A stretch of DNA of 64,000 nt from Trypanosoma brucei (Eukaryota). The notes under the pieces are model-generated. The model saw only the letters and a program-made list of their open reading frames with translations. It was not told the origin of the DNA and did no database searches. The stretch covers positions 3,680,001-3,744,000 of the forward strand of contig CM000208.1 in NCBI GenBank assembly GCA_000002445.1. The letters run 5' to 3'. Position 1 is the stretch's first letter, and the number at the start of each line of letters is the position of its first letter. Position numbers and translations under genes: made by a program. Shown piece after piece: positions 12,116 to 17,424 of the stretch.

Positions 12116-14500
12116 ATGGCGCTCTCGCTTGTAGTTGGGTTAGCCAGCGATGCGCTGGAGGGCAGACATAACCATGAGAAACGTTTCGAGGCGTTGCGCG
12201 CACAACTCGGTGGAAGCTCCAGTTGGCGTCAGCAGCAATGTGTCGAAGGTGTTTGTGGTACATTTACTCTGGATGTCCCAATTACTGAAGCGGATGTGGA
12301 CCGGTGGGGAACTCTTCTCAGCGAAAGCGCCCCGCCGCCGGCTCCCCCGAATGCCGCTTTTGCTGGAGGTGGTTTTGTTGACGTTGCAGCATTGTTGGCG
12401 ATGGATAATGAGGGAGACCAGCAGCAGGCGGTGCATAAGCTCGCCCCAATGAAGATGTTTGATCCCAACCAGGTGATTAGACCGGCTATGACAAAAGTGC
12501 TTATGCACCGTCGCAAGTGGCTTCCGTACCGGCAGCGCTTGACCGTTTATCAGTGCCGTACCTCAATCATTGATGCGGTTCTCCGAAACTCAGTAGTGCT
12601 CCTTACCGCCCCACCGGGGAGCGGATGTACCCTACAGCTCCCGCAGATCATATGGGAAACAGAGGTGTTTAAGACAAAGCGCCTCATTATTGTTTGTCCC
12701 ACAACTCTCACGGTTCAACGGACCGTGCAACGGCTGCGAGAGGAACGTGGCGAAGAAGCAACGACGACGACAGTGGGTGAGTGCACTCCAATGTGCTATG
12801 GGGTAACCCCGGGTACGCAGATTGTCGTTACGACTCCGGAAATGTTTGTGCGACAGTTGCTATGTGACCCAATACTCCTTCATGTTGGTTGCGTTATATT
12901 TAATGACATTCACATACGTTCTCCAATAACGGAGTTTTCCCTCTCACTTCTTCGTAGCATGTTGCGGACGCGGGACGAGTGTGGCGTGGGACGACTTGGT
13001 AGTGCGCCGCGTGTTGTGGTTTGCTGTCCTGACGACGCGGTTTCTAATACCATTGCAGAGTACTTTGGAGCTGACCACAGTATGCAGCTGAACCTCCAAC
13101 AGGTGCTTCAACGGGATGTCAAGACGGGGGCAGCCGATGCACTGCGAAGCAGCGGCTCGTACGCATCACCGGTTGTACTCTACCTTGAAGAAACTATGCA
13201 GTGGCTCACAAAGTGCGAGGAGGAGGGAAGCTTTTTGTGTCGTGACCCTGGAGAGGAACTCCGGTGCTATGTGGAAAACATTGGAGTTGTTGCAAAAATA
13301 ATGGCCATGGAAAATGCGGATTTCATGTCAGATGAAAAATTTCGCTCCCACTGGTGCCCTCTCATAGTAAACGCAATTCAGCAACATAGTTTAGCGGAGC
13401 GTAAGGAGCGTGCGACCTTGCTAGCGGAAAATAAGGAAGGGAAGCATCAAGAACTTCGGCAGGGTCACACGGTAGTGGTTGTTGTCGCACCCAACCCTCA
13501 AGTAGTGGCAACTATTGCCCATGCATTGCGCCAGGTGAATGACCAACAGAGGGAGGGGAAAGAAATGGCTCCTTCCATTACTGTTGAAGTATTGCGGGAA
13601 TGCACCACCTCTGATGAATTGCGTCTTCTTTTACGAGAAGGCGGTACGGCAGTGGAGGGCGGTGATCGTTTAGTGTTAGTGGCCACTCCTATTGTGGCAC
13701 AAACTGCGCTTCCACCGTCACTGTCAGTGGGCCTCGTGATTGACTGTGCCCGCCGCTCTTGTGCCACATATAACCCAAATGTTGACACTGATGTATTTTC
13801 CACTTCGTATAGTTACATACAGGAATTGCGGCAACGACGTTCAATTGCCCGTGTGTGTGTGGATAATTCAGGCAAGAAGGAGGAGGAGAGTGGCGTCCCA
13901 GCCCCCATGGTACTGCAGCTAATACCGAAATCTATCCTACACAGCGCCCAACACCGACGTGTGAGCTCTGATCCTGCACACCATTCCATTTTCCACTTAC
14001 CTTGGGTGGATTATGTGCATATATATCACCTGCTGCAAGCCCATGAAGAGGCCTTGTGTTGCCGTGGTCCGTCATCAGCATCCGCCATAGGCAGTTCTCA
14101 CACTGGAAATCTATTGTCACGGAATGTACCCCAACTCGTGTCATCTGCCTTTATCGGTGTTGCTTCACTATCCGCTAGCCGTTATGAGCATCTTAAACGT
14201 ATCTTCATTGCTGTAGAAAATCATTTGGTTCGCCTAGGACACTTGCAGAGACCAAGTGAGGAGCAGTTTGTACCTCGACTTCTGCCACTGGGCGTGGTCA
14301 CGACGTGCTTCGCCCTCCCTATTCCGGTGCTTCGGCTGTTGGTGTGGTCGCGATTGTATGGATGTGTTGTTCCCGCGAGCGTCGTAGCGGCGATTTGGAT
14401 GCTGGGTGATATTTTTTGCACTGTTCAGCACGATGATGAAGCTGCTGAACTTATGCGAGAGTCACGTGTATTTTTTCACATGGCTCCGGGAGCGATGTAG
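12116..14500 (+). CDS. DEAH/RHA-family helicase-like protein with degenerate catalytic motifs (probable pseudo-helicase)
   Basis: Collinear match to DEAH-box motif order. Motif I is APPGSGCTLQLPQI (GSGKT->GSGCT). Motif II is VIFNDIHIRS (DEAH->NDIH). Motif III is VVVCCPDDAVSNTIAEYFG (SAT->CCP). Motif V is VLVATPIVAQTAL...DCARRSCATYNP. Motif VI-like is ELRQRRSIAR. ATG start, 794 aa. Confidence 0.8.
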   Translation: MALSLVVGLASDALEGRHNHEKRFEALRAQLGGSSSWRQQQCVEGVCGTFTLDVPITEADVDRWGTLLSESAPPPAPPNAAFAGGGFVDVAALLAMDNEGDQQQAVHKLAPMKMFDPNQVIRPAMTKVLMHRRKWLPYRQRLTVYQCRTSIIDAVLRNSVVLLTAPPGSGCTLQLPQIIWETEVFKTKRLIIVCPTTLTVQRTVQRLREERGEEATTTTVGECTPMCYGVTPGTQIVVTTPEMFVRQLLCDPILLHVGCVIFNDIHIRSPITEFSLSLLRSMLRTRDECGVGRLGSAPRVVVCCPDDAVSNTIAEYFGADHSMQLNLQQVLQRDVKTGAADALRSSGSYASPVVLYLEETMQWLTKCEEEGSFLCRDPGEELRCYVENIGVVAKIMAMENADFMSDEKFRSHWCPLIVNAIQQHSLAERKERATLLAENKEGKHQELRQGHTVVVVVAPNPQVVATIAHALRQVNDQQREGKEMAPSITVEVLRECTTSDELRLLLREGGTAVEGGDRLVLVATPIVAQTALPPSLSVGLVIDCARRSCATYNPNVDTDVFSTSYSYIQELRQRRSIARVCVDNSGKKEEESGVPAPMVLQLIPKSILHSAQHRRVSSDPAHHSIFHLPWVDYVHIYHLLQAHEEALCCRGPSSASAIGSSHTGNLLSRNVPQLVSSAFIGVASLSASRYEHLKRIFIAVENHLVRLGHLQRPSEEQFVPRLLPLGVVTTCFALPIPVLRLLVWSRLYGCVVPASVVAAIWMLGDIFCTVQHDDEAAELMRESRVFFHMAPGAM

Positions 14501-17424: not shown

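What the first reader, a model, noticed from the sequence alone, without database searches (positions are those of the whole stretch)
14440..14530. No intergenic spacer between the helicase-like ORF and the next 2.9 kb ORF; possible frameshifted single gene
The helicase-like ORF stops at 14498-14500 (frame 2). The next long ORF (frame 1) has its first ATG at 14524, and frame 1 is closed only 54 nt upstream (TGA at 14446-14448). Kinetoplastid genes need a spacer carrying a polypyrimidine tract and an AG acceptor for trans-splicing of the downstream mRNA; none exists here. A single +1/-1 indel in 14446-14500 would fuse both ORFs into a ~1770-aa protein with a pseudo-helicase core and a long disordered Pro/Ala/Ser-rich tail. 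The alternatives are a real frameshift or pseudogenisation, or a downstream ORF that is not independently expressed.
Basis: partly seen in the sequence, partly recalled or inferred. Interest (0 to 1): 0.5.

Follow-up and report, generated by a model that had tools for sequence, protein, structure and literature searches.

The report
One gene split by missing T
The two back-to-back reading frames are the halves of one conserved trypanosome helicase-like gene, separated only because this copy of the reference sequence has six T's where every related genome has seven, so the finding is an ordinary frameshift that existing annotation already reflects, not new biology.

Summary
The window is Trypanosoma brucei brucei TREU927 chromosome 10. 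ORF1 (12116-14500, frame 2) and ORF2 (frame 1, open from 14449, ending 17424) are two halves of one gene, Tb927.10.15360 by gene-number order. The break is a T6 run at 14471-14476. T. equiperdum OVI, T. b. gambiense DAL972, T. b. equiperdum and four read-based Logan assemblies all have T7 there and a single 1768/1769-codon ORF. Adding one T to the window gives a 1769-aa protein that differs from the OVI protein at 3 residues. All 19 kinetoplastid homologues aligned read straight through the junction (motif EAR.FF|SR.S.SDV). The junction lies inside the helicase-associated (HA2, ratchet) domain of a DEAH/RHA-type fold. The tail is not merely disordered: it carries a SURP module and an RRM-fold domain. 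No spacer, polypyrimidine tract or conserved two-ORF arrangement exists, and nothing supports programmed frameshifting. These tools cannot tell whether T6 is a base-calling or cloning error or a genuine, very recent TREU927 allele. Downstream substitutions (5 synonymous, 1 non-synonymous) argue against an old pseudogene. Low interest; already reflected in existing annotation.

The parts
12116..14476 (+). 5' part of the single CDS (codons 1-787, frame 2). It holds the RecA1-like domain (about aa 130-290, nt 12503-12985), the RecA2-like domain and the first part of WH/HA2.
   Evidence: The alignment of ORF1 to T. congolense P0009 ends exactly at ...RVFF, residue 787.
14471..14476 (+). T6 homopolymer and site of the frameshift. 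All other Trypanozoon assemblies have T7 here.
14477..14500 (+). Seven out-of-frame codons (HMAPGAM) plus TAG. This is the spurious C-terminus of ORF1 created by the missing base.
   Evidence: No homologue has this sequence.
14446..14448 (+). TGA that closes frame 1 upstream. It is irrelevant once the frames are joined at the T run.
14476..17424 (+). 3' part of the single CDS (codons 788-1769 plus stop, frame 1). The ATG at 14524 is an internal Met codon, not a start.
14183..14724 (+). Winged-helix and HA2 (ratchet) region of the DEAH/RHA fold. It is continuous across the frameshift.
   Evidence: Family profile positions 686-865 align to DHX29 residues 1047-1213, i-E 2.7e-11. The AF2 model has helices on both sides of residue 787/788 with pLDDT about 93. 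Foldseek aligns about 480-520 columns to DHX29, DHX36, DHX37 and Prp22, E down to 2e-12.
14848..15093 (+). Beta-rich domain (aa about 912-993) in the position of the OB-fold of DEAH/RHA helicases.
   Evidence: Strands 413-494 of the model. The Foldseek alignments to DEAH helicases (about 470-520 columns for a 511-residue query) are long enough to reach this region, but the per-residue aligned range was not inspected.
15832..15939 (+). SURP-like module (FLKMYPDLFAFLDPEHEFHGYYLHVLRRE...).
   Evidence: Pfam Surp is sub-threshold in T. brucei (E 0.15), but 11 of 17 family members match it, best E 4.9e-7.
16876..17088 (+). Conserved C-terminal RRM-fold domain (PSVLVYPLP...IFKNDRI).
   Evidence: AF2 core pLDDT is above 94 with beta-alpha-beta-beta-alpha-beta topology. 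Nearly all of the top 50 Foldseek PDB hits are RRM domains, with probability about 1.0 and weak E values from 4e-3.

Best explanation
ORF1 and ORF2 are one protein-coding gene of T. brucei. By gene-number order it is Tb927.10.15360, a 1769-aa kinetoplastid-specific DExH/RHA-like helicase homologue. It has degenerate ATPase motifs, an HA2 plus OB-like C-terminal module, a SURP module and a C-terminal RRM-fold domain. In this TREU927 chromosome-10 sequence a run of seven T's is recorded as six (14471-14476). That shifts the reading frame by one base in the middle of the HA2 domain, producing seven spurious codons, a TAG, and an apparently separate 2.9-kb ORF. No intergenic spacer exists because there is no second gene, and the ATG at 14524 is an internal methionine. 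Shown here: the single-gene architecture, the exact site of the break, and the T7 state in all relatives examined. Inferred: the cause. The likeliest cause is a one-base error in the archived Sanger-era reference, in base-calling or cloning (about 0.5). The next is a genuine but very recent, possibly heterozygous, TREU927 allele (about 0.45). The confidence of 0.97 refers to 'one gene split by a one-base T-run difference', not to which of these two causes applies.
For: Neighbouring proteins match TREU927 records exactly: EAN78894, 78895 (H3V), 78896 (RPC40), 78897 (UTP11) and onward. No protein record exists between H3V and RPC40. T. congolense P0009 and Logan P0001 cross the junction in one frame. 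T. equiperdum OVI, T. b. gambiense DAL972, T. b. equiperdum and four Logan assemblies all have gtaTTTTTTTcac and a called gene of 1768/1769 aa. With one T added, the window gene aligns without gaps to them, with 9 nt and 3 aa differences from OVI. An HMMER search with ORF2 gave 43 hits at E <= 0.001. In 15 of the 17 proteins longer than 1200 aa in the top 20, the ORF2-homologous part (best stretch) starts 744-931 residues in; in the other two the best stretch is a later one. In a MAFFT alignment, 19 of 19 homologues are continuous at the junction. The profile-to-PDB alignment and the fold search show the DEAH/RHA HA2 domain spanning the break. The 23-nt gap has no polypyrimidine tract, against 406-5248 nt for every other gap. 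TREU927-private substitutions downstream of the break are 5 synonymous to 1 non-synonymous, and there is no second lesion. A published indel table numbers a T. evansi deletion in Tb927.10.15360 as Ser1539del, which matches the fused numbering exactly (PMC4288722 supplement). The same paper reports 58 homozygous CDS indel discrepancies between TREU927 Illumina reads and the reference. ICORN correction converted 98 frameshifted L. infantum models to intact ORFs (PMC3245030).
Against: No TREU927 reads or independent TREU927 assembly could be examined, so error and real allele cannot be separated. Coordinate arithmetic on the published Tb927_10_v5 indel table has one offset (3751487) that fits both four left-aligned deletions at window 5.4-5.8 kb and the TCT deletion at 16729. 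This suggests the later v5 reference has the same net length, and hence probably still T6, which fits a site that curators kept as a frameshift. However, the same table lists no T-run insertion for T. evansi against v5. That would be unexpected if v5 were T6 and T. evansi T7, so these two indirect clues conflict. Finished Sanger sequence rarely miscounts a run of only 6-7 bases.
Confidence: 0.97

Rival explanations
1. Genuine strain- or haplotype-specific frameshift. The TREU927 clone, or one of its two haplotypes, really carries T6. This copy would then be a very young unitary pseudogene or null allele of an otherwise conserved gene.
For: The T6 state appears to persist in the later Tb927_10_v5 coordinates (inference). 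GenBank carries no protein for the locus, which is how annotators treat a frameshift they accept. The reference represents only one allele at heterozygous loci (PMC4288722).
Against: All seven other Trypanozoon assemblies have T7. There is no second disabling mutation in 5.3 kb, and changes downstream are 5 synonymous to 1 non-synonymous, so any inactivation would be extremely recent. The gene is conserved in the 19 kinetoplastid homologues aligned.
Confidence: 0.45
2. Two independently expressed genes: a truncated helicase, and a separate SURP/RRM protein translated from ATG 14524 on its own trans-spliced mRNA.
For: Both ORFs are long and open in this sequence.
Against: The gap is 23 nt with no polypyrimidine tract. 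No homologue has this arrangement. The break falls inside a folded HA2 domain. Frame 1 shows homology upstream of the ATG, from residue 788.
Confidence: 0.01
3. Programmed recoding: the T6/U6 run acts as a -1 ribosomal frameshift or transcriptional slippage site that yields the full-length protein from the T6 template.
For: A -1 slip on GUA UUU UUU C would give exactly the wild-type sequence ...VFFSHGSG.
Against: The frameshift is not conserved, since every relative is in frame with T7. The site is not a canonical X XXY YYZ heptamer in the zero frame (it reads A UUU UUU). The downstream 101 nt fold no better than shuffled sequence, z = -1.27. From my own knowledge, cellular -1 programmed ribosomal frameshifting has not been described in trypanosomatid nuclear genes.
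Confidence: 0.02

Closest known systems
Homopolymer-length frameshifts in Sanger-era trypanosomatid reference genomes (reference errors or annotated frameshift 'pseudogenes')
   Same: A one-base difference in a short T run splits a conserved ORF that is intact in sister genomes. Such cases are documented: 98 L. infantum gene models were restored by ICORN (PMC3245030), and there are 58 homozygous CDS indel discrepancies between TREU927 Illumina reads and the reference (PMC4288722).
   Different: Whether this particular site is among those discrepancies could not be checked. The relevant supplementary table is truncated in the held copy.
DEAH/RHA (DExH-box) SF2 RNA helicases such as DHX29, DHX36, DHX37 and Prp22/Prp43
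   Same: RecA1 matches with E down to 1.7e-38 using the family profile. WH and HA2/ratchet align at the sequence level, and the whole RecA2-WH-ratchet-OB module aligns at the fold level.
   Different: The ATPase motifs are degenerate in T. brucei: Walker A is GSGCT rather than GxGKT, and motif II is NDIH rather than DEAH. There are large insertions and a C-terminal extension of about 750 aa with SURP and RRM-fold modules, which the DHX29, DHX36, DHX37 and Prp22/Prp43 helicases do not have as far as I know (not tested here). All relatives found are long proteins of the same architecture; those whose source could be traced are trypanosomes, and taxonomy was not checked for the rest.
SURP-module splicing factors (SF3A1, SFSWAP, U2SURP, CHERP)
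   Same: The ...F.FL.P....H.YY... core of the SURP module is present. Pfam Surp matches 11 of 17 family members, best E 4.9e-7.
   Different: There is a single module embedded in a helicase-like protein. The T. brucei copy itself is below Pfam's threshold (E 0.15). No partner or splicing role has been tested.

Membership tests
Single conserved kinetoplastid gene (orthologue of the 1769-aa 'DEAD/DEAH box helicase, putative' of T. b. gambiense and T. equiperdum) | Collinear homology of both ORFs to one uninterrupted protein in relatives | tested here: met
Single conserved kinetoplastid gene (orthologue of the 1769-aa 'DEAD/DEAH box helicase, putative' of T. b. gambiense and T. equiperdum) | A single minimal edit restores one ORF of orthologous length | tested here: met
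   Adding one T at 14471-14476 gives 1769 aa, with 3 aa differences from T. equiperdum OVI.
Two separate trans-spliced kinetoplastid cistrons | Intergenic spacer with a polypyrimidine tract and AG acceptor upstream of the downstream ORF | tested here: not met
   The gap is 23 nt with a longest pyrimidine run of 4. The other gaps are 406-5248 nt with runs of 9-65.
Two separate trans-spliced kinetoplastid cistrons | Mapped spliced-leader and poly(A) sites between the ORFs | not testable with these tools
   No RNA-seq read data or splice-site tables were accessible.
Programmed -1 ribosomal frameshift site | Canonical slippery heptamer X XXY YYZ in the zero frame | tested here: not met
   The zero-frame context is GUA UUU UUU CAC, so the heptamer reads A UUU UUU.
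Programmed -1 ribosomal frameshift site | Stable downstream stimulatory structure | tested here: not met
   The fold of 14480-14580 gives z = -1.27; 21 of 200 shuffles fold as well.
Programmed -1 ribosomal frameshift site | Conservation of the frameshift in related genomes | tested here: not met
   All relatives are in frame.
Decayed unitary pseudogene | Multiple disabling lesions or relaxed constraint after the first lesion | tested here: not met
   There is one lesion only. TREU927-private changes downstream are 5 synonymous to 1 non-synonymous.
Decayed unitary pseudogene | Lesion confirmed in independent reads of the same strain | not testable with these tools
   No TREU927 read set or second TREU927 assembly was found. 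The Logan contigs are about 1.2% diverged from the window.
DEAH/RHA SF2 helicase | RecA1 with Walker A GxGKT and motif II DExH | tested here: not met
   T. brucei has GSGCT and NDIH. Other trypanosomatids have GSGRT and DDxH. Deeper orthologues keep GxGK(T/S). The fold and sequence homology are nonetheless clear.
DEAH/RHA SF2 helicase | C-terminal WH, HA2 ratchet and OB-fold module | tested here: met
DEAH/RHA SF2 helicase | ATP-dependent RNA unwinding or translocation activity | not testable with these tools
   This needs biochemistry.

The most novel reading that the evidence does not exclude
TREU927 genuinely carries T6 on all copies and still makes the full-length 1769-aa protein by -1 slippage (ribosomal or RNA polymerase) on the U6/T6 run. 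This would be a rare case of cellular recoding rescuing a frameshift in a trypanosome nuclear gene.
Probability: 0.02. Interest if true: 0.6.

Novelty: already known. Interest (0 to 1): 0.1.

Why it matters
The biological importance is small. The result shows that the missing spacer is not an exception to kinetoplastid gene organisation but a one-base frameshift in a reference sequence. The practical value is in annotation. This version of TREU927 chromosome 10 lacks a protein record for a conserved 1769-aa gene, so proteomic, orthology or essentiality analyses based on it can miss or split the gene. If T6 is real, the main laboratory reference strain would carry a null allele, possibly heterozygous, of a conserved kinetoplastid-specific helicase-like, SURP and RRM protein. 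That would say something about the gene's dispensability. The protein family itself is uncharacterised and has an unusual architecture: a degenerate DExH core followed by SURP and RRM modules.

Tried and rejected
1. The two word-indexed homologue searches returned only one distant Logan protein and the T. congolense protein. They missed the near-identical Trypanozoon proteins, which were recovered by fetching the neighbourhood of UTP11 in other genomes and by exact look-up.

2. Exact look-ups of ORF1, ORF2 from the ATG and the fused protein all returned 'not in the collection'. No independent TREU927-haplotype assembly, T6 or T7, was therefore available.

3. The Logan contigs L005-L008 were checked for a spliced leader and for TREU927 identity. 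None has a spliced leader, and all are about 1.2% diverged from the window, so they are not TREU927.

4. I tried to decide whether the later Tb927_10_v5 reference has T6 or T7 from published indel coordinates. The arithmetic favours T6, but the absence of a T. evansi insertion call favours T7, so this is unresolved. The table with TREU927 Illumina variants is truncated in the held copy.

5. The TrypTag supplement and the MKT1 paper supplement hold no usable entry for Tb927.10.15360.

6. The -1 frameshift idea was rejected (and the comparative data).

7. Rfam and tRNA scans of the window found nothing.

8. A literature search for a SURP-helicase in trypanosomes returned only unrelated hits.

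Full report
**Observation.**
- ORF1 occupies 12116-14500 in frame 2 and ends with TAG at 14498-14500.
- Frame 1 is closed by TGA at 14446-14448 and open from 14449. It has a GTG at 14500 and its first ATG at 14524, and it runs to a stop at 17422-17424.
- The distance from the ORF1 stop to the ORF2 ATG is 23 nt, and the longest pyrimidine run in it is 4 nt.
- The other 19 gaps between + strand ORFs in this window are 406-5248 nt and contain pyrimidine runs of 9-65 nt.

The junction is therefore a genuine outlier.

**Source of the window.** Exact-sequence look-ups of neighbouring ORFs identify the window as Trypanosoma brucei brucei TREU927 chromosome 10 (a 4,054,025-bp record).
- The CYTH protein is EAN78894 (1994-3811).
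- Histone H3 variant is EAN78895 (6448-6867).
- RPC40 is EAN78896 (18730-19743).
- UTP11 is EAN78897 (20462-21502).
- These are followed by two kinesins and glycosomal malate dehydrogenase.

The consecutive accession numbers leave no protein record for the 5.3-kb helicase-like locus between H3V and RPC40. ORF1, ORF2 and a fused translation are all absent from the protein collection. By gene-number order the locus is Tb927.10.15360. A paper lists that ID as 'P-loop hydrolase?', recovered at 3% coverage in an MKT1-TAP purification (PMC3985637).

**Where the break is.** The T. congolense orthologue (P0009, TCIL3000_10_13140) matches ORF2 over its whole length at 55% identity. It also extends 300 residues upstream, and those residues match the C-terminal 300 residues of ORF1 at 62% identity.
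- The ORF1 alignment stops exactly at ...ESRVFF (residue 787).
- The frame-1 translation picks up at SHGSGSDVVSAFHAYRMW.
- A distant Logan homologue (P0001) shows the same pattern.

The switch therefore lies in gtaTTTTTTcac, the T6 run at 14471-14476. Adding one T yields a single ORF of 1769 codons.

**Close relatives.** I fetched the DNA around UTP11 from other genomes.
- T. equiperdum OVI, T. b. gambiense DAL972 and T. b. equiperdum (GCA_003543875.1) each carry a called gene of exactly 1769 aa at the syntenic position, with TTTTTTT at the site.
- Four read-based Logan assemblies (ERR7929157/59/61/63) also have T7 and 1768/1769-aa ORFs.
- With the T added, the window gene aligns without gaps to these genes. 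It has 9 nt and 3 aa differences from OVI, and 62 nt and 25 aa differences from DAL972.

The one-base T-run length is the only length difference between TREU927 and the five 1769-codon copies. The two 1768-aa Logan alleles additionally lack one TCT codon at window 16729-16737.

**Wider family.** An exhaustive HMMER search with the frame-1 translation found 43 relatives at E <= 0.001.
- Seventeen of the top 20 are proteins of 1260-2071 aa. In 15 of them the ORF2-homologous part begins 744-931 residues in; in the other two the best-scoring stretch is a later one.
- In a MAFFT alignment, 19 of 19 homologues are continuous across the junction, with a conserved motif EAR.FF|SR.S.SDV..F..Y.MW.
- A profile of 17 members aligns to human DHX29 across the winged-helix and HA2 ratchet region (profile 686-865 against DHX29 1047-1213, i-E 2.7e-11). 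That alignment runs straight through the junction.
- An AlphaFold2 model of residues 500-1010 (pTM 0.75) places residues 787/788 at the end of a helix with pLDDT about 93.
- The whole model aligns over about 480-520 columns to DHX29, DHX36, DHX37, Prp22, DHX15 and HrpA, with E down to 2e-12.

The spurious stop therefore cuts a folded helicase-associated domain in two. It does not separate a 'core' from a 'tail'.

**The protein.**
- RecA1 is recognisably DEAH/RHA-like, but the catalytic motifs are degenerate.
- Walker A is GSGCT in T. brucei and GSGRT in other trypanosomatid-like members. It is GxGK(T/S) only in more divergent members. Motif II is NDIH or DDxH. 'Pseudo-helicase' is a fair inference, though activity was not tested.
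- The C-terminal half is not merely disordered.
- Pfam's Surp module matches 11 of 17 members (best E 4.9e-7) but is below threshold in T. brucei itself.
- The conserved last domain (window 16876-17088) is predicted with core pLDDT above 94 and has the RRM fold. Nearly all of the top 50 Foldseek PDB hits are RRMs, although the E-values are weak (from 4e-3).
- An RNA-processing or mRNP role is plausible but inferred only from this architecture and the weak MKT1 association.

**Alternatives.**
- Two separate cistrons are excluded by the lack of a spacer and of any orthologue with that arrangement, and by homology in frame 1 upstream of the ATG.
- Programmed -1 frameshifting is not supported. The frameshift is not conserved, the site is not a canonical heptamer in phase, and the downstream 101 nt fold no better than shuffles (z = -1.27).
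- An old pseudogene is unlikely. There is a single lesion, and substitutions private to TREU927 downstream of it are 5 synonymous to 1 non-synonymous.

**Error or real allele?** This could not be settled.

In favour of an error:
- The lesion is in a homopolymer.
- Every relative examined has T7.
- There is no decay downstream.
- Such discrepancies are documented in these references. There are 58 homozygous CDS indels between TREU927 Illumina reads and the reference (PMC4288722), and 98 L. infantum frameshifted models were repaired by ICORN (PMC3245030).

In favour of a real allele:
- A published T. evansi indel table uses Tb927_10_v5 coordinates and numbers a TCT deletion in Tb927.10.15360 as Ser1539del. 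That is exactly the fused numbering.
- One offset (3751487) fits both four left-aligned deletions in Tb927.10.15340 (window 5409-5798) and this deletion at window 16729.
- This implies that v5 has the same net length as the window, probably still T6, with a CDS annotated across the frameshift.

Against that reading, the same table lists no T-run insertion for T. evansi relative to v5, which would be expected if v5 were T6. The two clues conflict. The table of TREU927 Illumina variants is truncated in the held copy. No TREU927-haplotype assembly exists in the accessible collections. I put roughly equal weight on a reference error and on a very recent, possibly heterozygous, TREU927 allele.

**Verdict.** It is an ordinary one-base homopolymer frameshift in a reference sequence of a gene that sister genomes annotate as a single 1769-aa protein, and that the Tb927 v5 numbering treats as one CDS. 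Interest is low. The value is in annotation hygiene, plus a side note on an uncharacterised DExH-like, SURP and RRM protein family.

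Noticed in passing
window 3812-12115: An 8.3-kb AT-rich stretch (GC 0.29-0.35, against about 0.5 in the genes) holds only the histone H3 variant gene (6448-6867) and a low-complexity ORF at 5409-5798. By coordinate fit that ORF is Tb927.10.15340. It carries 11 indels in T. evansi and is probably not a real gene. No tRNA or Rfam RNA was found in the window.
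   Followed up: partly
L001 6595-7289 (Logan DRR495437, unknown kinetoplastid): Homology to the T. brucei protein continues after the called stop of P0001, at 6918-7162, first in frame 3 and then in frame 2 (switch at about 6947, in or next to a G run). That assembly therefore has its own frame breaks in the same gene.
   Followed up: partly
P0009 (T. congolense TCIL3000_10_13140): The 1270-aa model begins at the equivalent of T. brucei residue 488. It is N-terminally truncated and lacks the RecA1 half, probably because of an assembly gap or a frameshift in IL3000.
   Followed up: no
L004 11923-15208; L002 17674-21041; L003 10001-10777: Neighbouring gene models are broken in other assemblies. 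The first kinesin is split into 722 + 149 aa in T. b. equiperdum. The second kinesin is split into 441 + 1175 aa in T. equiperdum OVI. UTP11 is 258 aa in DAL972 against 346 aa elsewhere. Frameshift or gap artefacts are common in this neighbourhood.
   Followed up: no
window 16729-16737: There is a TCT (Ser) triplet copy-number polymorphism. Two Logan assemblies encode 1768 aa, and T. evansi STIB805 is reported with Ser1539del at the same place.
   Followed up: partly
window 12602-12640 and 12887-12925 (Walker A and motif II): The Walker A lysine is replaced by Cys in T. brucei (GSGCT) and by Arg in the closer family members in the alignment (taxonomy not checked). More divergent orthologues keep GxGK(T/S). 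This looks like stepwise loss of ATPase capability within a conserved family.
   Followed up: partly
window 15832-15939 and 16876-17088: The supposedly disordered tail holds a SURP module and an RRM-fold domain. In the HMMER search, the RRM-like domain also matches proteins (1138-2196 aa) that match only this C-terminal domain (P0074-P0090).
   Followed up: partly
P0058 (1995-aa orthologue): This orthologue carries a tubulin-binding cofactor C (TBCC) domain at its C-terminus (Pfam E 1.6e-23). It is probably a merged gene model in that genome.
   Followed up: no
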